This document shows, one piece after another, positions 2,290-11,971 of a stretch of DNA of 12,051 nucleotides. The DNA comes from Candidatus Heimdallarchaeota archaeon. GTDB lineage: Archaea; Asgardarchaeota; Wukongarchaeia; Wukongarchaeales; JBHIFL01. The notes beneath the pieces were generated by a model that was not told the DNA's origin, searched no databases, and saw nothing but the letters and a program-made list of their open reading frames with translations. Positions within the stretch are counted from its first letter, which is position 1, and each line of letters starts with the position of its first letter. Both the position numbers and the translations under genes were made by a program. The stretch spans positions 1 to 12,051 of the forward strand of contig JBHIFL010000106.1 in assembly GCA_046761065.1 (NCBI GenBank), given 5' to 3'.

Positions 2290-4017
2290 TTGGCAAAAAA
2301 AGAGATTATTATAGAGCCACTGACAAGAATTGAAGGACACCTTGGAATCCAAGCTGAAGCGGATCTTAATACAAATAGGTATGTGGATGCACATAGTTTT
2401 GGAACCATGTTCAGAGGATGGGAGATTATTCTTCAGGGTAGAGAACCTGCTGATGCCATCTGGATTACGCAAAGGGTTTGTGGGGTCTGTCCTTACCCGC
2501 ATGCCCTTGCTTCAGCTCAAGCTGTGGATATGGCTTATAACGCCCCTCCACCGCCCATGGGAATTCTCTTAAGAGATCTCATGCACGGAGCCGAGCAGCT
2601 CTATGACTCAGTGTTGGGTTGCATCGTGCTTGAAGGTCCAGATTACAGTCAGCAAATCATAGAAAAGTCTAATCCGGCGTGGTGGGGGGAAGCTACGAAA
2701 ACAAAGGCCCCTCGAAGTGAATTCCATGGTTACCAGACTATCGCAGAGATCATGACTGCTCTGACCCCTCTCACTGGTTCTTTATGGTTGAGGTCCCTAG
2801 GACTGGAGAAACTGGGTCGAAAGATGGCCGCCCTTCTAGGCGCAAAGCACCCTCATGTGAACACCGTAATACCGGGTGGCATGGCAAAGACATTAACCGC
2901 AACAGATCTCGAGCAGTATGCGGCAATGCTCTCTCAACACATCGCTTTTGCGAAAGAATTCATTCCCATTTTCGACGACTTATGTGACTTTCTAATAGGT
3001 ATGGACTACGAAGACTCAGGTGCACGACCTATAAACCTCTTATCATACGGGGCATATGAGGATCCCTCTGCTTATACAGCAGTGTACGAGGACATGACCG
3101 ACTGGGGTCTAAAACGTCAGATTTCCCCCGGTGTTGTGATAAATGGGGAGCTGATTACCCAGGATTTGGTTGAGATCAATGTTGGGGTACACGAGTTCGT
3201 TGACCACTCATATTATACTAAATGGACTGGTAAGGAGTTGGAAGAGGATCCCTTGGGGAACCCACTTGCCACTGAGCATCTATGGAATAAGGAGACAAAG
3301 CCAGAGCCTGGACCACCTAAAAATTGGGAATCTAAGTATTCCTGGGCGTCCTCTCCTCGATGGGCGGATTGGAAAAAGAGGGTAGATGGAGGATTACATG
3401 TTCTAGAAGCTGGACCCATTGCTAGATTGTGGACCACAGCATTATCAAAAAAGATACCAGAGTCTACCGGAGAGAGTCTCCTCTTCACCCTTCCTAAGGC
3501 GACCGTAGTGGGTTATCCCATAGCAGATGAATTCACCCTCGAGTGGAAAATACCCGGGAAAGTAAACACGATCGAACGACTCAGAGCTCGAGCTTACTAC
3601 CATGCCTTCTCTGCGTATGCCACCTATAGTCAGCTCCTAAAAGCCTTGGAATTGATCAAGAAGGGAACAGCTCAGGTCTGGAACAAATATAAGAAGCCGA
3701 AACGAGGCGTGGGAGTCGGGATGGTGGAGGCAATGCGGGGCGCCCTGGCACACTGGGTCGTTATGGAGAATAAAAAGATTCGGAAGTACCAGATCATAAC
3801 ACCCTCTGGATGGAATGCAAGTCCTCGTGGTCCTAATGACGATCTCGGTCCCTATGAGGAGGCAATCGTCGGAACGCCCATCACGGAGCCATCGCCAGAT
3901 GAAGAGCTCGTCGGCATCGATATAGTTAGAGTGGTGAGGAGTTTTGACCCATGTTTAGCTTGCTGTGTACATCTATATGCTGGAGACAGAAAAATTAGAC
4001 AAATAGAAATCATTTAG
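2290..4017 (+). CDS. [NiFe]-hydrogenase large subunit (group 1, group 1h-related), TTG start
   Basis: EPLTRIEGH, FRGWE, L1 motif RVCGVC, EAMRGAL.HW and L2 motif RSFDPCLACCVH, followed by a 14-aa cleavable tail (LYAGDRKIRQIEII). AGGTGA RBS overlaps the small-subunit stop. Cys, not Sec, in L2. Confidence 0.97.
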   Translation: MAKKEIIIEPLTRIEGHLGIQAEADLNTNRYVDAHSFGTMFRGWEIILQGREPADAIWITQRVCGVCPYPHALASAQAVDMAYNAPPPPMGILLRDLMHGAEQLYDSVLGCIVLEGPDYSQQIIEKSNPAWWGEATKTKAPRSEFHGYQTIAEIMTALTPLTGSLWLRSLGLEKLGRKMAALLGAKHPHVNTVIPGGMAKTLTATDLEQYAAMLSQHIAFAKEFIPIFDDLCDFLIGMDYEDSGARPINLLSYGAYEDPSAYTAVYEDMTDWGLKRQISPGVVINGELITQDLVEINVGVHEFVDHSYYTKWTGKELEEDPLGNPLATEHLWNKETKPEPGPPKNWESKYSWASSPRWADWKKRVDGGLHVLEAGPIARLWTTALSKKIPESTGESLLFTLPKATVVGYPIADEFTLEWKIPGKVNTIERLRARAYYHAFSAYATYSQLLKALELIKKGTAQVWNKYKKPKRGVGVGMVEAMRGALAHWVVMENKKIRKYQIITPSGWNASPRGPNDDLGPYEEAIVGTPITEPSPDEELVGIDIVRVVRSFDPCLACCVHLYAGDRKIRQIEII

Positions 4018-4073: not shown

Positions 4074-4595
4074 TTACTTTTCCTCTCGATTGAGGATCTC
4101 CATAATCAATGAGACTGCCTTTTTTGTTGCGTCCTCGACCTCCCCAGAGCGTTCTAAACTCAGTTCTAAACTCTTTGGTTCACAACTTATCAGAATACTC
4201 TTGGGAGGTAGAGACCCCAGAGTCTTAGCTACCTTCAAAAGTCCTTCCATCCCAGCTTCGTGGAGACTCAGAGAGATTAGATTTGTAACACCATCTACAT
4301 TGACCTCTTCAGCTTTGATCTCTTTTTTGTATAAGGTTCCCGGCTCTCCATTGCCCTTATTTGTATCGAGGAAGATGATGAAGTCGTACTCACTTAGGTC
4401 AGAGGCGACCGTAAGGCCAGCCGTGCCGAGATCCCAGAGTTCCACGTTCTCCGGGAGTGAACAATCTGAAAGGAGATCGATGACTCGTGGGCCAAAGCCA
4501 TCATCCCCTATGAGCCTATTGCCAATCCCAGCAACCAAGATCCTGTTCGCTCGAGAGTGTCGTTCTATCTGCATTTCCATTTTCTTCCACATCAT
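4074..4595 (-). CDS. Hydrogenase maturation protease (HybD/HyaD/HycI family, peptidase A31), copy 1
   Basis: ILVAGIGNRLIGDDGFG, DLGTAG, IIFLD and SLHE motifs. The metal-ligand D...D...H triad is present. Confidence 0.94.
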   Translation of the reverse strand: MMWKKMEMQIERHSRANRILVAGIGNRLIGDDGFGPRVIDLLSDCSLPENVELWDLGTAGLTVASDLSEYDFIIFLDTNKGNGEPGTLYKKEIKAEEVNVDGVTNLISLSLHEAGMEGLLKVAKTLGSLPPKSILISCEPKSLELSLERSGEVEDATKKAVSLIMEILNREEK

Positions 4596-5447
4596 ATTCT
4601 GGTTGTATTAAACATTATAGATCATGTAATTTAGGAAAAAATAATTTCAAATAAAAAAGTTTCGTTTATACTTTTATTTTATAATATTAAAATTTATATA
4701 TAATAATAATAAAAAAAATTTTTATATAGTTCAAAAGTAAACTAATTCTTCAGAACAGTAGACCTTTCAATCTATATACATGGTTCAAAAGTATCTAAGA
4801 TAAGACACGGATAATATTGATATTAACGAATATTGGGGAATTTTTTGCTTTACTACCTGATAAAACACCTCTATATCCAGAATAAGCAGTTCTATTTATA
4901 TATTGGAGATAAGTAAATCCGACAAATAGACATTTAAGGATAGTTAAGTTTTAAATGTATAAATTTTGAAATGATGAATCTAAGAGAATGATATACTCTA
5001 CACTTCATTTTTTAATTCCTCTAAACCCTAATAGGGCATATTATTTTCCTCTCGATTGAGGATCTCCATAACCAATGAGACTGCCTTTTTTACTGCAGCC
5101 GCGACCTCTTTTGAGAGTTCAAAACCCGGTTCCAAACTTTTTGGGTCACAACCTATCAGAATAACCTTAGGAGGTAGAGTTCCCAACGCTTTTGCGATTT
5201 TAAGGAGACCTTCCAGCCCAGCCTCGTGGAGACTCAAAGAGACCAGATCTGTGACATCCTCTTCACTAACATCATCAACCGTTATCTCCCTCTTGTACAA
5301 AGTCCCTGGCTCTCCACTACCCTCAATCGCGTCGAGGAAGATGATGAAGTCGCACTCTCTTAGGTCAGAGGCGACCGTAAGGCCAGCCGTGCCGAGATCC
5401 CAGAGTTCCACGTTCTCCGGGAGTGAACAATCTGAAAGGAGATCGAT
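4393..5447. repeat. 89-bp exact direct repeat (4393-4481 = 5359-5447) inside the duplicated protease genes
   Basis: Base-by-base identity from CTTAGGTCAGAGG to GGAGATCGAT. A second tract, 4078-4125 vs 5044-5091, has one mismatch in 48 bp at the same offset. Confidence 0.92.
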
Positions 5448-5555
5448 AACTCGTGGGCCAAAGCCGTCATCCCCCCTGAGCCTACTTCCAACACCTGCTA
5501 CCAAGATTTTTTTCCCTTTAGACGAGTGTTCCAACTGAGGCATCTTCTTAACCAT
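5028..5555 (-). CDS. Hydrogenase maturation protease (HybD/HyaD/HycI family, peptidase A31), copy 2
   Basis: ILVAGVGSRLRGDDGFG, IIFLDA, GEPG, SLHE and LIGCDP motifs. Collinear paralog of 4074-4595 at a constant 966-bp offset. Confidence 0.94.
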   Translation of the reverse strand: MVKKMPQLEHSSKGKKILVAGVGSRLRGDDGFGPRVIDLLSDCSLPENVELWDLGTAGLTVASDLRECDFIIFLDAIEGSGEPGTLYKREITVDDVSEEDVTDLVSLSLHEAGLEGLLKIAKALGTLPPKVILIGCDPKSLEPGFELSKEVAAAVKKAVSLVMEILNREENNMPY

Positions 5556-5937: not shown

Positions 5938-6219
5938 GAAAGTCATTACTATTTCAGTGGGGCTTACTTGCAGTGTAAAACAAAAATCGAAATCAAAGAT
6001 GTAAATAGGGACCCAAATCGAATTTAGATATCAAAATTCCCTAAGAAAGGCAAAAAATATGCGTTTCCATCCGTTAACAGTCAGGAAGGTGATTTTATCA
6101 AACAAGTTTACCAGTTCCTGGCTTACATGAAGAAGCACAGTGTGCAACGATATTTAGATGAGGCGAATGAGCTGAAACAGAAGTTTGAAGGTGTAAATAC
6201 TGTCAAGAGAGACCATTAA
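5938..6219 (+). pseudogene. Possible gene remnant of unknown function
   Basis: The frame reads ESHYYFSGAYLQCKTKIEIKDVNRDPNRI*ISKFPKKGKKYAFPSVNSQEGDFIKQVYQFLAYMKKHSVQRYLDEANELKQKFEGVNTVKRDH*. Composition is protein-like, with one internal TAG (6025-6027) and no clear start. Confidence 0.25.
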
Positions 6220-6624
6220 CATTCAAGAATTTCTGATCTTTTGTCATTTGACCAGTGAAACGGTTTAAAGTACTGATAAAACCCTTTAATTCTGGGTTCC
6301 CATTCAAGTTAGGTTAATATTAATCGAAGGTGCTGTATTCGATGATTTACCCATACCAGCGAATCAACACAAAGCCGTTTTGAAGAACCTATCTTCTAGC
6401 TCCTGAATAATCCTTAGGTCTTTCAAAGCAGGATGGGTCCGTTATAGACACGTATTTACTCATTAAAGAGCCAGTTACACCGGATATCCTTGATTAAGAA
6501 ATATTTGAAATAAAAATACAATATTCGAAATGAGAATAGCACAACGTTTAACATATTATACAATTAAGATATTAATCAAAAATCAAATAATTAATTATTA
6601 TTAGAATAACATAGAGACGATTAG

Positions 6625-9342
6625 ATGCATAAAAGAAGCATACTCAAAACAACATTATTCCTAATCGGCTTAATTTTGCTTATTGGGTTTTTTAGTGCCC
6701 TCCACGTGGCGCAGGAGGCTGGGGGAGAGGTCACAGATGTGATGAGTGTGCCACGATTGCAATATCAAGACCAGCAGCAGACTGTACCACTGTCCTTCGC
6801 TTTACCCCTCCAAAACTCTCTTCCCCTACAGGACTTCCTGCGATCGCGATCGCTTGGAACCTCGCTTATAGCCATTGAAGGGGGCATGGAGTGGAATCGG
6901 ACATATGACGATTCTGATTATGACACAATCTATGCAGTCATCCAAACGATGGACGGGGGGTATGCGCTCGCTGGTTCCACTCACACTTCCGAGACGGACG
7001 GATATTATTATGAGTTCTGGCTAGTGAAGACCGATACCTCAGGAAATGAGCAGTGGACACGGACGTATTTCGGCTCTGAGGTGGTTGATGTGGCTGAAAC
7101 CGTCATCCAGACGGCGGACGGGGGGTATGCGCTCGCTGGAAGTATCAATGGATCTGAGTGGACCAAAACAACTGCATGGTTGGTGAAAACCGATGCTAAC
7201 GGGATCCCGCAGTGGAACCAGACCTATGGTGGCCATGATTCGGATTGGGCCAAAGCAATGATCCAGACGGTTGATGGCGGCTTTGCGCTCGTTGGGTGGA
7301 CTCGATCTTACGGGGCAGGTGAAGCGGACTTCTGGTTGGTGAAGACCGATGCCCGTGGAGCTGTGGAGTGGAATCAGACCTATGGTGGCACAACGGATGA
7401 ATATGCTTACGCAGGCATCGAAACGACGGACGGCGGCTTTGCGCTCGCTGGAAGTTTGATGGTACCTGAGAACCGGGGATGGTTTGATGCTTGGTTAGTG
7501 AAAACTTACCCTAATGGCACTGTACAATGGAATCAGACCTATGGCGGCTCGGGGGAAGATAATGTTTACGCAGTCATCGAGACAGCGGATGGCGGGTATG
7601 CGCTTGCCGGGGAGACTTGGTCCTACGGGGTGGGTGAGAGTGACTTCTGGTTGATGAAGACCGATCCCAATGGGAAGGCCCAATGGAATCAGACCTATGG
7701 CGGTTCTGATTACGATACGGCCTATGCGGTCACCGAGACGCCTGATGGTGGGTTTGCACTCGTTGGAACTACTAGATCCTCCGGGACGGGCGGTTTCAAC
7801 GGCTGGTTGGTGAAGACGGATGATTATGGGGATGTTGAGTGGACACAAACGTATGGTGGCTCAGAGGGCGATTTTGTATATTCGGGAATCAAGACAGCCG
7901 ACAGCGGGTTTGCGCTTGCCGGATTCACCGATTCTTTTGGAACTGACAGTCGCGACGGCTGGCTGGTTAAAGTAATCGCATCGTACACCACGCCACTCAC
8001 CGTCACACCCGCTGTCACAGTCCTGAGTCCCAATGGTGGAGAGTATTGGAATGGGACACAAACTATCAATTGGGCCGCCACAGATCCCCAAGGTGATCCT
8101 TTGACCTACTCGGTCTACTACAGTTCCGATGGTGGGCAAACCTGGACCCAACTGGCGACTGGGCTCACTGAATCCTCTTATCTCTGGGATACCACCACAG
8201 TCGAAAATGGAGTAAATTGTCTGATTCAAGTGGAGGCCAGTGATGGCACATACATTGGAGCAGATGCCTCAGATACGCCCTTTGAGATCGCGAATGAGCC
8301 CATGAACACCGCGCCTGTTGTGTATGTCATCCAACCCAACGGGGGTGACTGGGTCAACGGTACGTACGAGATCCAGTGGAGTGCTACTGATCCCAATGGG
8401 GATGCGCTCACGTTTACCATCAGCTATAGCCCCAATGGTGGGGACACCTGGACTCAACTCGATACTGGGGTCTCCGAACCCTCCTATCCATGGGATACCA
8501 CTACAGTCATGAACGGTACGAGTTACCTGATCCGAGTGGAGGCTTACGACGGCACGTACACTGGGATGGACGTCTCAGACACGCCATTTGAGATTGCAAA
8601 TGAACCGGTTCCGTTTGAAATGCATCCAGTAAAAACACAGTCCACCATGGATGTCACCATGGCTGCAGCCGGAGCTGCGATTTCAGGAGTGGTTCTTCTT
8701 GGAGCAGCTGTAAAAGCGACTTCTATTCCACCGCCGCTCCCCGGCATGAGATCCCAGAAGGATTTCTTGAAACGCCTCTTTTGGTACCTGTGCTACTCCT
8801 TTGTTTGGCTATTTGGGCATGTTATATATCCTCCAGTCTGTCGCCGCTTAAACAAGGCCGATGTTACCACGAATTCGACCCGCCAAGCGATCCTGCACCT
8901 GCTAAGAGAACGCGGGGTAGCCTACCTCCGCGAGATCGAACGATCCATCGATTCAGGGTTTTTTGGCTTAATGTGGCATTTACAAGTACTGGAAGATTTT
9001 GGCCACATCCGCCAAATACGGATTGGCAAGTATCGCGTGTATTACCTTAAGGAATATGGGAGCCCGGTTTCCCTCTCTGTGGAGTTAGGGTTCTTATTTA
9101 AAAATAAGAACACACGTGCTATCATCAATTATATCAGGGATCATCCGGGCACATACCAAGCTGAAATTGCGCGCACCCTGGGGCTCCATCACACCACCGT
9201 GCGCTATTACCTCCAACAAATAATAGAACAAAAACTGCTTGAGTCGTTTTCGGACGGGCGTAGGACTCGGTATTTCCTCCTTAATGAAAAGAAACCCCAA
9301 GTCAACGCGATGTTGCAACACGTTCAGCCCGAAGGGGCTTAA
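6625..9342 (+). CDS. Membrane-anchored receptor-like transcription regulator: signal peptide, 7-blade beta-propeller, 2 Ig-like domains, TM helix, tandem winged HTH (ArsR-like / COG3398-type)
   Basis: Basic plus hydrophobic N-terminus. Seven ~52-aa repeats W(N/T)(Q/R)TYxG...TxDGG(Y/F)AL(A/V)G...WLVKTD (6886-7974). Two PNGG(E/D)...W.ATDP.GD.LT...Y.S..GG.TW...WDTT domains (8008-8601). Hydrophobic VTMAAAGAAISGVVLLGAAV (8653-8712). Two wHTH units, TRQAILHLL...YLREIER...WHLQVLEDFG...RVYY and TRAIINYIRDHPG.YQAEIARTLGLHHTTVRYYL...GRRTRYF (~8860-9290). Confidence 0.88.
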   Translation: MHKRSILKTTLFLIGLILLIGFFSALHVAQEAGGEVTDVMSVPRLQYQDQQQTVPLSFALPLQNSLPLQDFLRSRSLGTSLIAIEGGMEWNRTYDDSDYDTIYAVIQTMDGGYALAGSTHTSETDGYYYEFWLVKTDTSGNEQWTRTYFGSEVVDVAETVIQTADGGYALAGSINGSEWTKTTAWLVKTDANGIPQWNQTYGGHDSDWAKAMIQTVDGGFALVGWTRSYGAGEADFWLVKTDARGAVEWNQTYGGTTDEYAYAGIETTDGGFALAGSLMVPENRGWFDAWLVKTYPNGTVQWNQTYGGSGEDNVYAVIETADGGYALAGETWSYGVGESDFWLMKTDPNGKAQWNQTYGGSDYDTAYAVTETPDGGFALVGTTRSSGTGGFNGWLVKTDDYGDVEWTQTYGGSEGDFVYSGIKTADSGFALAGFTDSFGTDSRDGWLVKVIASYTTPLTVTPAVTVLSPNGGEYWNGTQTINWAATDPQGDPLTYSVYYSSDGGQTWTQLATGLTESSYLWDTTTVENGVNCLIQVEASDGTYIGADASDTPFEIANEPMNTAPVVYVIQPNGGDWVNGTYEIQWSATDPNGDALTFTISYSPNGGDTWTQLDTGVSEPSYPWDTTTVMNGTSYLIRVEAYDGTYTGMDVSDTPFEIANEPVPFEMHPVKTQSTMDVTMAAAGAAISGVVLLGAAVKATSIPPPLPGMRSQKDFLKRLFWYLCYSFVWLFGHVIYPPVCRRLNKADVTTNSTRQAILHLLRERGVAYLREIERSIDSGFFGLMWHLQVLEDFGHIRQIRIGKYRVYYLKEYGSPVSLSVELGFLFKNKNTRAIINYIRDHPGTYQAEIARTLGLHHTTVRYYLQQIIEQKLLESFSDGRRTRYFLLNEKKPQVNAMLQHVQPEGA

Positions 9343-11829
9343 TGCCGGAAACTCAGGCGGCGCGGCTCTAAGCTACTCCCCCTGCCTAGTTTCGAGTTGT
9401 TCCTGGAGGATCCTCCATCGTGGACAAATGCTCTAAATTTTATTTATATGAGAACGTCCAAACAAATACCTTAGCAATTGAATTGAGAAGAACCATAGTG
9501 TAGGGGACTTTGGTCACTGGAGCCTTGGCGCGGAGTCGTAAAGCGTGGCTAAGCTATCCCTCAATCTCATAAGGTGATTAAAAATGAACAAGAAAAGTTA
9601 CGTAATACGTGCGTTAATTATCTTAGGAATGTTTTTTAGCATGGTAATCGGGCCGATTGGGGGCTCAGTTGGGTCAACTCAATCCGATGTAGGACGTATC
9701 GTGGTTTCAGCCGATGACTGGCCTATATGTGACTCCTATTGGAGTACGAGTGCAAGCATTTTCACGTTAAATACCTTTGGCTGGCTCACCGAATTTTCTA
9801 CCGGGAAACGGATCTTAGGGAATCCTATTGTTGAAACCGATCCATTACATACAAAAAACCACATGGTAGACACCCTCCAAACCAATGGGTATACTGTGGA
9901 CATAATAGACACCTCCAGTTGGACTCAAGCCTTGTTAGAAACCTATGATGGTGTATTTATTGAGGTTGGCCCCATCGATGATACGCTGTTAATAGAGTAT
10001 GTAAATGGAGGGGGCGGTGTCTTCCTTATTGGGGGACATTTTGGAACTGAACAGAGATATAATGAGTTTCTCTTGCACTTTGGTATGAGTTGGCATGAGG
10101 TGGTCGATCTTCGTGTCACCCTAACGAGTTTCGAGCCCCATCCGGTGATAACTGGGGTTTCTTCCTTGAAGATAGGAGGGCCCACACCGGTAGAAGTTCA
10201 TTCCAGTGGACCCACAATTTTAGCGACTTGGGGTGGTTGGAATTTGTTGGCCGTCTATTCAAAAGAGTTCGTGAGCCAAAATAACGGAGGGGAATGGAAT
10301 CCTCGAGCTCCAATGCCCACCTCACGAGCTGATCTAGCAGCAGTGGTGATGAATGAACGAATCTATGCAATCGGCGGCTTTAACGGCACGCACAATCTTG
10401 CGACTATGGAGGAGTATGATCCCGCGACCAATACATGGCATCCTCGGGCTTCGATGCCTACTGCACGGGGTTGGTTGGCGACAACGGCAGTGAACGGAAA
10501 GATTTATGCGATTGGAGGTTGGGATGGTACCAATTATCTGCCGACTGTAGAGGAATACGACCCCGCAACCGACACGTGGCGCCGTCGGGCTGACATGCCA
10601 ACCCATCGATACGGTCTGGCTGTGGTCGCCGTCGGGGGACGAATCTACGCCATTGGTGGCCAGAATGAAATCGGTGTGGGGTATCGGACAACGGTTGAGG
10701 AGTACGATCCGGCGACCGACACGTGGCGCCGTCGGGCTGACATGCCGACCCCTCGATATGGCTTGGCCGCGGTAATGGTTCATGGTCGGATCTATGCTCT
10801 TGGCGGCTTTAATGCAATAGATGGGGCGTTAGCGACGGTCGAAGAGTACAATCCCATTCTCAACACCTGGCGCCAGGTGACCGACATGCCATCCGCCCGG
10901 ATCAGTTTGGCAGCAGGCGCCGTGGGCGGGCGGTTTTACGCGATCGGGGGCTTGGAAACCTATCCGTCTCCTGTGGAGGAATACGATCCCCTCGCCGACA
11001 CATGGGAGCGCCGAACCCCCCTGCCGACTCCACGTGCCGGGCTGGCTGTCGCGGTGGTGCGGGGGCGGCTCTATGCGATCGGGGGGTATGATGGGGATCG
11101 GCGGCTTAGTACAGTAGAAGAGTACGATCCCCCCTTCTATGATACCGATGGGGATGGCTTTGCAGATGATGAGGAGTTACGCTATGGCCGAGATCCCTTG
11201 GTGCCTGAATGGGAACCTATGCCTCCCGAGTTATCCGTCCCCACTGTTACAGTGGTGAGTCCGAACGGGGGAGAGGTTTGGCAAGACCTGCAGACCATCA
11301 CCTGGACTGCAACAGATCCCCAAGGGGATCCATTGACCTATACGGTCTACTACAGTCCCAATGGCGGCCAAACCTGGACTCAACTGGCAACCGGGCTCAC
11401 CGAACCATTTTATCTATGGGATACCACCACAGTTGTGAATGGGACGAATTGTCTGATCAAGGTGGGGGCCAGTGATGGCGCATATATTGGGGTAGATGTC
11501 TCGAATGCACCCTTTGAAATCGCAAATAAGACCACGAACACTGCGCCTATAGTAAATGTCATCCAGCCCAATGGGGGGGAACGGGTTCGTGGCATGTACG
11601 AGATCCAGTGGAGTGCTACTGATCTTGATGGGGATACCCTCACGTTTACCATCAGCTATAGCTCCAATGGAGGGCAAACGTGGACTCAACTTGCGAGTGA
11701 GGTGACAGGAACCTCCTTCCAATGGGATACTTCCAGTGTGCAAGTGGATGAGAATTACTTGATCAAGATAGAGGCTAGTGATGGTCATCTTACTGCCGAA
11801 GATCGCTCCGATTACAAGTTTACGGTCGA
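8008..11829 (+). repeat. Two-Ig stalk cassette shared by the two large genes (8008-8601 and 11240-11829)
   Basis: Collinear protein match (ATDPQGDPLTY.VYYS..GGQTWTQLATGLTE..YLWDTTTV.NG.NCLI). Exact DNA tracts, e.g. 29 bp at 8364-8392 = 11596-11624. Confidence 0.88.
9404..9460 (+). promoter_or_regulatory. Putative promoter of the downstream surface-protein operon with a palindromic candidate operator
   Basis: Perfect 14-bp palindrome TGGAGGATCCTCCA (9404-9417). TATA-like TTTATATG (~9443-9450) inside an imperfect TGGAC...GTCCA inverted repeat (9421-9460). Strong RBS AAGGTGAT at 9571-9578. Confidence 0.45.
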
Positions 11830-11971
11830 ACGGGAAATCCTTACAGAAACGCGTTCGGAAGCATTTTTTGTGCCAAGTTTTAGGATGGTCGAGGTGTTGG
11901 GCGCACTTCTTGTCTTATTGGGCCTTGGTGAGAGTGGGAGAAGGCGGAATAAGTTAATTAAGGGATTTTAA
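9584..11971 (+). CDS. Secreted cell-surface protein: GATase/GIFT(DUF4350)-like domain, 6 Kelch repeats, Ca-binding DxDxDG motif, 2 Ig-like domains, C-terminal PGF-CTERM-like anchor
   Basis: Signal peptide MNKKSYVIRALIILGMFFSMV. YDGVFI...EYVNGGGGVFLIGG...NEFL..FG...HPVITGV. Six YA(I/L)GG...EEY(D/N)P Kelch units (10292-11131). DTDGDGFADDEE...GRDP (11141-11197). Ig pair at 11240-11829. Tail VPSF, hydrophobic segment, RRRNK (11870-11971). Confidence 0.88.
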   Translation: MNKKSYVIRALIILGMFFSMVIGPIGGSVGSTQSDVGRIVVSADDWPICDSYWSTSASIFTLNTFGWLTEFSTGKRILGNPIVETDPLHTKNHMVDTLQTNGYTVDIIDTSSWTQALLETYDGVFIEVGPIDDTLLIEYVNGGGGVFLIGGHFGTEQRYNEFLLHFGMSWHEVVDLRVTLTSFEPHPVITGVSSLKIGGPTPVEVHSSGPTILATWGGWNLLAVYSKEFVSQNNGGEWNPRAPMPTSRADLAAVVMNERIYAIGGFNGTHNLATMEEYDPATNTWHPRASMPTARGWLATTAVNGKIYAIGGWDGTNYLPTVEEYDPATDTWRRRADMPTHRYGLAVVAVGGRIYAIGGQNEIGVGYRTTVEEYDPATDTWRRRADMPTPRYGLAAVMVHGRIYALGGFNAIDGALATVEEYNPILNTWRQVTDMPSARISLAAGAVGGRFYAIGGLETYPSPVEEYDPLADTWERRTPLPTPRAGLAVAVVRGRLYAIGGYDGDRRLSTVEEYDPPFYDTDGDGFADDEELRYGRDPLVPEWEPMPPELSVPTVTVVSPNGGEVWQDLQTITWTATDPQGDPLTYTVYYSPNGGQTWTQLATGLTEPFYLWDTTTVVNGTNCLIKVGASDGAYIGVDVSNAPFEIANKTTNTAPIVNVIQPNGGERVRGMYEIQWSATDLDGDTLTFTISYSSNGGQTWTQLASEVTGTSFQWDTSSVQVDENYLIKIEASDGHLTAEDRSDYKFTVEREILTETRSEAFFVPSFRMVEVLGALLVLLGLGESGRRRNKLIKGF

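What the first reader, a model, noticed from the sequence alone, without database searches (positions are those of the whole stretch)
6625..9342. Receptor-like one-component transcription factor: extracellular beta-propeller and Ig stalk fused through a membrane helix to tandem winged-HTH domains
Seen: one ORF joins a signal peptide, a ~570-aa ectodomain (7-blade propeller with N-x-T sequons in five blades, two Ig-like domains), a TM segment and two wHTH domains. Known: tandem wHTH (COG3398-type) modules occur on archaeal membrane proteins, and ToxR/CadC show that membrane-tethered DNA binders can signal. I know of no characterised example with a propeller-plus-stalk ectodomain. Inference: this is a type I surface receptor that converts ligand or cell contact directly into transcription.
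Basis: partly seen in the sequence, partly recalled or inferred. Interest (0 to 1): 0.85.

Follow-up and report, generated by a model that had tools for sequence, protein, structure and literature searches.

The report
Membrane-tethered receptor-like archaeal transcription factor
One real, conserved gene of an Asgard archaeon joins a cell-surface propeller-on-a-stalk to two DNA-binding domains through the membrane; it belongs to a very large but untested archaeal family of membrane-bound gene regulators, and its sensor head is exchangeable.

Summary
It has an N-terminal signal sequence, a 7-blade beta-propeller, two Ig-like domains, a membrane helix and two ArsR-like winged-helix (wHTH) domains. 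AlphaFold2 models are confident for both halves.

The fusion is not a chimera. A full-length ortholog sits in a syntenic locus of an independent 304-kb scaffold. Contigs from four vent samples also bridge the stalk-membrane-wHTH junction.

- A second, strongly conserved, aromatic and amphipathic hydrophobic helix lies between the membrane helix and the wHTH pair. The number of membrane crossings is therefore not settled. Cytoplasmic wHTH is favoured but unproven.
- The tail is a widespread archaeal module: 2207 cluster representatives, and 228 of 301 genomes searched in this phylum.
- In a relative, the same leader, stalk and tail carry a Kelch head instead.

The gene class is already described: transmembrane transcription regulators (Demey 2023). 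Bacteroides hybrid two-component sensors are a characterised propeller-plus-Ig analogue.

Verdict: a new variant of a known kind. DNA binding, ligand and signalling are all inferred. Moderate interest.

The parts
6005..6624 (+). Upstream intergenic region with an AT-rich promoter-proximal stretch. Candidate regulatory region, not tested.
   Evidence: It is 88% identical to the region upstream of the ortholog in L008. Flanking coding DNA is 72-82% identical. No Rfam family matches.
6625..9342 (+). Whole gene, 905 aa.
   Evidence: Full-length ortholog P0003: 61% identity over 100% of the query.
6625..6720 (+). Signal peptide or signal anchor, aa 1-32. Cleavage is not established.
   Evidence: Basic n-region, then a hydrophobic core with Kyte-Doolittle 2.5. 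It is favourable on all three scales used.
6721..6876 (+). Low-complexity leader/linker, aa 33-84.
   Evidence: Low pLDDT at the start of the ectodomain model. It is 70-72% identical to the leaders in L008 and L009.
6877..7974 (+). Seven-blade beta-propeller head, aa 85-450.
   Evidence: 28 strands, with pLDDT mostly above 90. The best PDB match is the CylK propeller, E 5.6e-21 and 21% identity. Thousands of archaeal homologs exist.
7987..8304 (+). Ig-like domain 1, aa 455-560.
   Evidence: Seven-strand sandwich. Weak Tissue_fac and fn3 hits. 72-80% identical to the L008, L009 and L018 orthologs.
8317..8619 (+). Ig-like domain 2, aa 565-665.
   Evidence: The Ig-Ig cassette is shared with the neighbouring gene at 64% identity.
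8641..8724 (+). Ala/Gly-rich membrane helix TM1, aa 673-700.
   Evidence: AlphaFold2 helix. Kyte-Doolittle 1.92. It is marginal on the Wimley-White and Hessa scales. It is not amphipathic.
8725..8754 (+). Conserved Pro-rich basic hinge, aa 701-710 (motif S-I-P-P-P-L-P-G).
   Evidence: Invariant or nearly invariant in six subfamily members.
8755..8826 (+). Conserved aromatic amphipathic helix H2, aa 711-734. Either in-plane or a second membrane helix.
   Evidence: AlphaFold2 helix, pLDDT 80-89. Hydrophobic moment p = 0.008 and 0.0002 against shuffles. Basic on both flanks. Wimley-White octanol -15 kcal/mol.
8857..9054 (+). Winged helix-turn-helix 1, aa 745-810, ArsR-like.
   Evidence: Phr 2p4w, E 8e-4. 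The family-invariant W-H-L..L motif lies in the recognition helix.
9073..9282 (+). Winged helix-turn-helix 2, aa 817-886, HVO_0163-N / HTH_24 type.
   Evidence: ArsR-family structures superpose at 1-2.5 A rmsd with 21-33% identity.
9283..9321 (+). C-terminal helix, aa 887-899.
9584..11971 (+). Neighbouring surface protein: signal peptide, N-terminal domain, six Kelch blades, TSP3, the same Ig-Ig cassette, and a C-terminal anchor without wHTH. Candidate co-regulated partner.
   Evidence: The gene pair is conserved in L008, and its start is present in L018.

Best explanation
The gene encodes a single-chain transmembrane transcription regulator of an Asgard archaeon. Its orientation is head outside, DNA-binding domain inside.

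Proposed anatomy:
- A Sec-type leader exports an acidic ectodomain: a 7-blade propeller head on a two-Ig stalk.
- One membrane crossing follows. Most likely this is the Ala/Gly-rich helix 673-700.
- The conserved Pro-rich hinge and the aromatic amphipathic helix 711-734 then lie on the cytoplasmic face of the membrane.
- The basic tandem ArsR-like wHTH pair binds promoter DNA at the membrane.

Proposed action: binding of a ligand or partner surface to the head changes the oligomeric state or the position of the juxtamembrane helix, and this alters DNA binding. The likeliest targets are its own conserved upstream region and the adjacent genes for surface proteins that share its stalk.

Shown: the domain anatomy, conservation of the fusion, head exchange, and membership of a large archaeal tandem-wHTH family.
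Inferred: the topology, DNA binding, the signal and the targets.
For: Anatomy. ORF and domains. AlphaFold2 models: pLDDT 86.9 for the tail and 89.4 for the ectodomain.

The fusion is real.
- Ortholog P0003 lies in a syntenic locus: HypA, NiFe hydrogenase large subunit, HycI, receptor, Kelch protein.
- Contigs of four samples bridge 7875-9700 and 8364-9700.

DNA-binding kind.
- Of 100 family members, 87 hit PF24266, 79 hit HTH_20 and 69 hit ArsR HTH_5 (best E 7.5e-19).
- Single wHTH domains superpose on ArsR-family regulators at 1-2.5 A.
- The best PDB sequence match is the archaeal regulator Phr.

Topology.
- The ectodomain has pI 4.05 (85 D+E against 23 K+R). The wHTH region has pI 9.8.
- Both flanks of H2 are rich in K/R in all six subfamily members.
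- H2 is significantly amphipathic, while TM1 and the leader are not.
- 47-50 of about 77 leader-bearing relatives have exactly one hydrophobic segment before the wHTH pair.

Modularity.
- Against L008, the leader, stalk, membrane region and wHTH are 72-83% identical, but the head is only 54% identical.
- In L009 the same chassis carries a Kelch head.

Context. In four syntenic or related loci, the tail-bearing gene is followed by a gene for a membrane-anchored surface protein.

The class is documented in archaea (PMC10269533).
Against: - No experiment or expression data exist for this protein or any close relative.
- Two hydrophobic helices separated by a short loop are also the signature of a helical hairpin, which would put the wHTH pair outside.
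- The scales disagree on which helix spans. Kyte-Doolittle and Hessa favour TM1.
- In some relatives the H2-equivalent is the only, clearly hydrophobic, membrane helix.
- wHTH 1 is below the curated ArsR cut-off.
- No operator motif was identified.
Confidence: 0.58

Rival explanations
1. The topology is the same, but signalling works by regulated proteolysis. Ligand binding or shedding of the ectodomain leads to cleavage within or next to the Ala/Gly/Ser-rich membrane helix. This releases H2 plus the wHTH pair to act on DNA away from the membrane, as in site-2-protease or Notch/ATF6-type pathways.
For: - TM1 is rich in small, helix-destabilising residues and is followed by an invariant P-P-P-L-P-G hinge.
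- The genome encodes at least four M50 site-2-protease homologs.
- Proteolytic control is described for bacterial TTRs such as CadC and TcpP (abstracts listed).
Against: - M50 proteases occur in all 14 control genomes, so their presence is uninformative.
- The released fragment would still carry the very hydrophobic H2.
- No cleavage motif is known for archaea, and no protease gene is linked to the locus.
Confidence: 0.17
2. It is a surface adhesin or structural envelope protein. Its cytoplasmic tandem winged-helix tail is a docking module for proteins or for the nucleoid, and is not a gene-specific regulator.
For: - The whole-tail Foldseek hits are tandem winged-helix scaffolds such as ESCRT-II, TFIIIC, ScpB and SelB.
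- The genome has ESCRT-II.
- The neighbours are anchored surface proteins with the same stalk.
Against: - Those structural matches have TM-scores of only 0.2-0.3.
- By sequence the tail matches only DNA-binding wHTH families, and no ESCRT-II or EAP30 profile at E <= 0.1.
- The recognition-helix motif is the most conserved part of the family.
Confidence: 0.12
3. Both hydrophobic helices span the membrane as a hairpin, so the wHTH pair is extracellular. It would then bind extracellular DNA or another polymer, or the protein is not a regulator at all.
For: - Two predicted helices are separated by a 10-residue Pro-rich loop.
- H2 is the strongest membrane-partitioning segment on the Wimley-White scale.
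- 18-24 leader-bearing relatives show the same two-segment pattern.
Against: - K/R clusters lie on both sides of H2.
- The tail is basic and the ectodomain acidic.
- H2 is amphipathic.
- Most leader-bearing relatives have one crossing.
- The wHTH domains are of the canonical ArsR type.
Confidence: 0.1
4. The fusion is an assembly chimera or a gene-calling artefact.
For: - The window is a whole 12-kb contig of a MAG with 8.2% contamination.
- A 29-bp repeat shared with the neighbouring gene breaks de Bruijn contigs at 8364-8392.
Against: - The same fusion is present in L008, L009 and L018 from other assemblies.
- Contigs of samples X1 and X4 run uninterrupted through Ig2, the membrane region and the wHTH pair.
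Confidence: 0.01

Closest known systems
Transmembrane transcription regulators (TTRs) such as ToxR, TcpP and CadC (survey: Demey et al. 2023, PMC10269533)
   Same: One polypeptide carries a membrane segment, an extracytoplasmic sensor and a DNA-binding domain. It is presumed to act on DNA from the membrane. The survey counted 1,384 archaeal TTRs in 367 of 404 species.
   Different: ToxR and CadC have an N-terminal OmpR-type DNA-binding domain and a C-terminal periplasmic sensor, which is the opposite orientation. Here a leader-exported N-terminal ectodomain precedes C-terminal tandem ArsR-like wHTH domains. No OmpR-type (Trans_reg_C) match appeared.
Bacteroides hybrid two-component systems, e.g. 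BT4663 and BT4673 (PDB 4a2l/4a2m, 3ott; PMC11253607)
   Same: A single chain has beta-propeller plus Ig-like (Y_Y_Y) sensor domains outside, a membrane segment and a DNA-binding domain inside. Their periplasmic domains appear among the Foldseek hits of the ectodomain model.
   Different: These systems insert a histidine kinase and a receiver between the membrane and an AraC-type domain. None of those domains is present here. Whole-model TM-scores are low, at 0.15-0.24. According to PMC10269533, hybrid TTRs were found only in bacteria.
HVO_0163-type tandem wHTH proteins of archaea (Pfam PF24266 with HTH_24/HTH_20/HTH_5)
   Same: The tail matches PF24266 above its cut-off. Atlas clusters with this annotation match the tail at TM 0.55-0.63. 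87 of 100 relatives carry the family.
   Different: Most members are 200-280 aa (membrane helix plus wHTH pair) or 400-600 aa. This one has a 640-aa propeller-Ig-Ig ectodomain and is the longest open frame among those listed. I found no functional study of the family.
ArsR/SmtB family and the archaeal heat-shock regulator Phr (PDB 2p4w)
   Same: Fold and recognition-helix motif are shared. Phr matches at E 8e-4. Structures 3f6o, 7p6f and 3cuo superpose at 1-2.5 A rmsd with 21-33% identity.
   Different: Those proteins are soluble dimers with one wHTH per chain. Here two wHTH domains sit in tandem on a membrane protein. wHTH 1 scores 30.5 bits against a cut-off of 55. Metal sites were not examined.
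ArnR and ArnR1 of Sulfolobus (membrane-bound archaellum regulators; cited in PMC13286277)
   Same: They are archaeal, membrane-bound transcription regulators with experimental support.
   Different: Their HTH is N-terminal and they have no large ectodomain. No sequence relationship was tested.
Integrin alpha subunits and other eukaryotic type I receptors
   Same: The domain order is the same: 7-blade propeller head, Ig-like stalk, single membrane helix. Integrin alphaV and alphaM appear as Foldseek hits, E about 1e-10 and TMq 0.41.
   Different: Sequence identity is 8-11%, and the match follows from generic folds. Integrins have no DNA-binding tail. No homology is claimed.

Membership tests
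Transmembrane transcription regulator (definition of PMC10269533) | At least one predicted transmembrane region | tested here: met
   Hydropathy peak at 677-697 and an AlphaFold2 helix at 673-700, plus a second hydrophobic helix at 711-734.
Transmembrane transcription regulator (definition of PMC10269533) | A predicted DNA-binding domain in the same chain | tested here: met
   PF24266 and HTH_24 score above their curated cut-offs.
Transmembrane transcription regulator (definition of PMC10269533) | Regulates transcription while in the membrane | not testable with these tools
   Needs EMSA, DAP-seq and genetics.
HVO_0163-type tandem wHTH (PF24266) | Profile match at or above the gathering score | tested here: met
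   33.1 bits against a cut-off of 31, at residues 830-884.
ArsR/SmtB metalloregulators (NF033788, PF01022) | Profile match above the curated cut-off | tested here: not met
   NF033788 scores 30.5 bits against 55 at residues 750-809. PF01022 is not listed for this protein, though 69 of 100 relatives hit it.
ArsR/SmtB metalloregulators (NF033788, PF01022) | Metal-sensing site | not tested
   There is only one Cys in residues 739-905. The sites were not aligned.
ToxR/CadC-type regulators | N-terminal OmpR-type winged helix, then a membrane helix, then a C-terminal periplasmic sensor | tested here: not met
   The orientation is reversed, and no Trans_reg_C match appears at E <= 0.1.
Bacteroides hybrid two-component systems | Histidine kinase, receiver and AraC-type domains after the membrane segment | tested here: not met
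   No HisKA, HATPase_c, Response_reg or AraC match.
Delta-60 repeat / DUF5122 propeller (TIGR02608, PF17164) | Profile match | tested here: not met
   No match at E <= 0.1 in Pfam or NCBIfam. Some homologs of the head carry PF17164 or PF26094, or are named delta-60 repeat proteins by JGI.
ESCRT-II winged-helix subunits | EAP30 or ESCRT-II profile match, or a close fold match | tested here: not met
   No such Pfam hit. Foldseek TM-scores are 0.23-0.29.
   No COG library is on hand. The term occurs in no searchable paper.
Substrates of intramembrane proteolysis | Cleavage within the membrane helix | not testable with these tools
   Only permissive features were seen: a TM1 rich in small residues and M50 proteases in the genome.

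The most novel reading that the evidence does not exclude
The locus is a plug-and-play surface recognition system of Asgard archaea. A constant chassis (leader, Ig-Ig stalk, membrane helix, amphipathic helix, tandem wHTH) receives different heads. The heads (7-blade propeller or Kelch) are exchanged by recombination through the Ig cassette that the chassis shares with neighbouring anchored surface proteins. Contact with a partner cell, virus or polymer then directly retunes expression of the cell's own surface-protein cluster. This would be a one-protein route from the cell surface to the genome in the closest prokaryotic relatives of eukaryotes.
Probability: 0.2. Interest if true: 0.8.

Novelty: new variant of a known kind. 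Interest (0 to 1): 0.52.

Why it matters
Signal transduction in Asgard archaea is almost unexplored experimentally. These organisms live in close contact with partner cells.

This protein would be the simplest possible route from a surface event to gene expression. It displays a large adhesin-like head and carries its own DNA-binding domains.

The tail module is present in most genomes searched in the phylum, and in Methanobacteriota and Thermoplasmatota as well. Showing what one member does would therefore annotate thousands of proteins now called only 'winged helix-turn-helix transcriptional regulator'.

The head exchange on a constant chassis also gives a natural experiment for mapping which part sets specificity.

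Tried and rejected
- **Homodimer test of the tail** (residues 655-905, two copies). Complex prediction gave no verdict, score 0.00. This is neither for nor against dimerisation.
- **Scan of genome contigs with the close-tail alignment A1.** 89 pattern matches were found, but none was confirmed.
- **Literature searches.** 'COG3398' returned no paper. 'HVO_0163' returned only an acetylome list. Searches for archaeal membrane-tethered regulators returned nothing on this family.
- **Rfam on the whole window.** No family matched.
- **Repeat search in the two intergenic regions.** It found only a weak 23-nt direct repeat and a 12-nt AT palindrome, which are not convincing operators.
- **Ectodomain of the C95 paralog against the neighbour's N-terminal domain.** No similarity.
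- **P0014 as a 'headless' Ig-only form.** Rejected. The DNA upstream of it in L018 encodes the leader and propeller blades in other ORFs or frames. That gene is therefore split, broken or mis-assembled.
- **Membrane geometry of the two helices.** It could not be read, because model coordinates are not exposed. No SignalP, TMHMM or DeepTMHMM is available.
Full report
**Observation**

The window is one whole 12,051-bp contig (C106) of a 4.42-Mb metagenome-assembled genome. The genome has 234 contigs and is 91.5% complete with 8.2% contamination.

The ORF 6625-9342 on the + strand is open for 905 codons.
- **Leader.** A basic N-terminus is followed by a hydrophobic core at residues 5-30.
- **Propeller.** There are seven repeats of about 52 residues. 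The W-[NT]-[RQ]-T-Y motif occurs at 90, 144, 197, 249, 302, 354 and 406. Five of these read N-x-T.
- **Stalk.** Two beta-sandwich domains follow the propeller.
- **Membrane helix.** A hydrophobic helix lies at 677-697.
- **wHTH pair.** wHTH 1 (750-809) matches the ArsR/SmtB profile at E 2.3e-7, but below the curated cut-off. wHTH 2 (827-884) matches PF24266 (HVO_0163 N-terminal HTH) and HTH_24 above their cut-offs.

The AlphaFold2 models are confident.
- The ectodomain model (residues 70-672) was built on an alignment of 98 sequences. Its mean pLDDT is 89.4. It shows 28 strands, i.e. seven four-stranded blades, and then two seven-stranded sandwiches.
- The tail model (655-905) was built on 116 sequences. 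Its mean pLDDT is 86.9. It shows a helix at 673-700, a loop, a second helix at 711-734, two winged helices and a C-terminal helix.

The N-x-T motif in the blades is part of the repeat consensus W-N-x-T-Y-G-G seen across about 100 homologs. It may or may not be glycosylated.

**Is the fusion real?**

Yes, on three lines of evidence.
- **Syntenic ortholog.** A full-length ortholog (P0003, 992 aa, 61% identity over the whole query) lies on an independent 303,790-bp scaffold. The neighbourhood is the same: HypA, NiFe-hydrogenase large subunit, HycI protease, the receptor, a Kelch surface protein, and then two more large proteins.
- **Same junction elsewhere.** The junction also occurs in L009, with a Kelch head, and in L018 from another assembly.
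- **Bridging contigs.** Contigs from four hydrothermal-vent samples of one study hold the stretch. One contig of X1 covers 7875-9700. One contig of X4, a sample not flagged as the possible source, covers 8364-9700. Both run without a break from the stalk through the membrane region and both wHTH domains.

The contig breaks seen at 8364-8392 coincide with a 29-bp repeat shared with the neighbouring gene.

**What organism**

The genome is most likely an Asgard archaeon of an isolated lineage.
- The closest named tail relatives are from Candidatus Hodarchaeota and Candidatus Borrarchaeum.
- The genome encodes an ESCRT-II Vps25-type protein above the Pfam cut-off. That family rang in none of 14 control genomes.
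- A related locus carries an Arf/Roc GTPase gene.
- Only two of the searched genomes share the order.

**The tail is a widespread archaeal module**

A full HMMER search with residues 680-905 found 2207 cluster representatives at E <= 1e-3, and 183 at E <= 1e-10. The match lies at the C-terminus of proteins 180-800 aa long.

Of 100 such proteins, 87 hit PF24266, 79 HTH_20, 74 HTH_24, 69 ArsR HTH_5 (best E 7.5e-19) and 48 MarR. Almost none of their N-terminal parts has a Pfam family, although four carry a BNR_2 propeller.

Within the phylum, 228 of 301 genomes searched have a match at E <= 1e-12. Open frames cluster at about 230-280 aa and 400-600 aa, and a few reach about 780-850 aa. The 905-aa frame here is the longest listed.

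Atlas clusters annotated 'HVO_0163 N-terminal HTH domain-containing' or 'ArsR' match the tail at TM 0.55-0.63. They come from Methanobacteriota, Thermoplasmatota and Promethearchaeota.

The most conserved columns of the family are N750, R753 and the W-H-L..L motif of the recognition helix of wHTH 1.

Single wHTH domains of the model superpose on ArsR-family regulators (3f6o, 7p6f, 3cuo) at 1-2.5 A with 21-33% identity. Whole-tail matches to tandem winged-helix scaffolds (ESCRT-II, TFIIIC, ScpB) have TM-scores of only 0.2-0.3. The best PDB match by sequence is the archaeal regulator Phr. The tail is therefore of the DNA-binding kind.

The sequence between the membrane helix and wHTH 1 is the best-conserved part of the close subfamily. 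It holds a hinge S-I-P-P-P-L-P-G and then a helix rich in Trp, Tyr and Phe, with the motif W-Y-L-x-Y-P-F-x-W-L-F-G-H.

The scales disagree about this helix (H2, 711-734).
- Kyte-Doolittle gives only 1.24.
- The Wimley-White octanol scale gives -15 kcal/mol. That makes H2 the strongest membrane-seeking segment, while TM1 is marginal.
- The Hessa scale prefers TM1.

If both helices span the membrane, the wHTH pair would be outside the cell. Four observations argue for a single crossing.
- H2 is significantly amphipathic (p = 0.008 and 0.0002 against shuffles). TM1 and the leader are not. All six subfamily members show this.
- Both flanks of H2 carry K/R clusters in all six members.
- The ectodomain is very acidic (pI 4.05) and the wHTH region basic (pI 9.8).
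- 47-50 of about 77 leader-bearing relatives have exactly one hydrophobic segment before the wHTH pair.

Two observations argue the other way. 18-24 relatives share the two-segment pattern. In some relatives the H2-equivalent is the only, clearly hydrophobic, helix.

I put a cytoplasmic wHTH pair at roughly 85-90%, but it remains an inference.

**Head exchange**

Against the L008 ortholog, identities by part are as follows.

| Part | Identity |
|---|---|
| Leader | 72% |
| Two Ig domains | 79-80% |
| Membrane region | 75% |
| wHTH pair | 83% |
| Flanking genes | 72-85% |
| Propeller head | 54% |

In L009 the leader (70%), Ig domains (77-84%), membrane region (78%) and wHTH pair (82%) are retained. 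The head, however, is a six-blade Kelch propeller, and a propeller-headed protein without the tail lies next door.

A second orthogroup combines the same TM1-hinge-H2-wHTH module with an unrelated domain of about 250 aa and a Thr/Pro-rich stalk. It includes the own-genome paralog on C95, at 45% identity, and P0270 to P0272.

In the window, L008, L009 and L019, the tail-bearing gene is followed by a gene for a leader-bearing, C-terminally anchored surface protein.

**Structure comparison of the head**

The best solved match is the seven-blade propeller of CylK, at E 5.6e-21 and 21% identity. Weaker hits include integrin alpha ectodomains. They also include the periplasmic sensors of Bacteroides hybrid two-component systems, such as BT4663 and BT4673.

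The Bacteroides systems are single chains that contain the membrane sensor kinase and the DNA-binding response regulator (PMC11253607). They are a characterised analogue of 'propeller plus Ig-like sensor wired to a DNA-binding domain', with a phosphorelay in between. According to PMC10269533, such hybrid forms were found only in bacteria.

**Mechanism**

The best-supported reading is a one-component transmembrane transcription regulator. The head lies outside and the tandem wHTH pair inside. It would act on DNA at the membrane, probably on its own upstream region and the adjacent surface-protein genes.

Rivals are:
- release of the tail by intramembrane proteolysis;
- a non-transcriptional docking role for the tail;
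- an extracellular wHTH pair.

No tool here could test DNA binding, the ligand or signalling. The homodimer prediction gave no verdict.

**Novelty and verdict**

The kind is known. Transmembrane transcription regulators are documented as widespread in archaea, with 1,384 in 367 of 404 species (PMC10269533). The tail family is already annotated, though I found no functional study of it.

The following appear to be undescribed:
- the leader-first orientation with a 640-aa propeller-Ig-Ig ectodomain;
- the conserved aromatic juxtamembrane helix;
- the exchangeable head.

I class the finding as a new variant of a known kind, of moderate interest.

Noticed in passing
window 6005-6624: The 620-bp region upstream of the gene is 88% identical to its counterpart in L008. 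That is more than the flanking coding DNA, which is 72-82% identical. A 63-codon stop-to-stop frame at 6028-6219 is only 68% identical at the protein level, so it is probably not coding. No Rfam family matches. Possibly a regulatory region or an unknown RNA.
   Followed up: partly
window 8689-8833: Samples X2 and X3 hold a second allele with six differences in the membrane/H2-coding stretch. These give T699A, S725P, F726L and V727I, plus two silent changes. S725P restores the Pro that five of six relatives have in the middle of H2.
   Followed up: partly
window 4074-4595 (-) and 5028-5555 (-): Two tandem paralogous hydrogenase maturation protease (HycI-type) genes lie downstream of the NiFe-hydrogenase small and large subunit genes (1304-2278, 2290-4017) and HypA (27-398). 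L008 has only one HycI gene at this place.
   Followed up: no
window 8364-8392 and 11596-11624; Ig cassettes 7987-8619 and about 11215-11860: The receptor and the downstream Kelch protein share the two-Ig cassette at 64% protein identity, including an identical 29-bp stretch that splits de Bruijn contigs. This is a plausible substrate for recombination and head exchange.
   Followed up: partly
L018 7683-9000 (GCA_012975005.1 contig): The syntenic gene in this assembly is split. A 154-aa ORF carries the leader. Propeller blades are readable at 8048-8767. A 523-aa ORF carries Ig-Ig, the membrane region and the wHTH pair. This could be a frameshift, a pseudogene or a collapsed repeat assembly.
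   Followed up: partly
L006/L007 (G040:C7:754304-756206): A complete-quality relative carries two tail-bearing genes (417 and 446 aa frames) side by side, which suggests local duplication of such regulators.
   Followed up: no
window 9584-10290 (aa 1-235 of the neighbour): The N-terminal domain of about 200 aa in the Kelch protein has no Pfam family. It is 83% conserved in L008 and 62% in L009.
   Followed up: no
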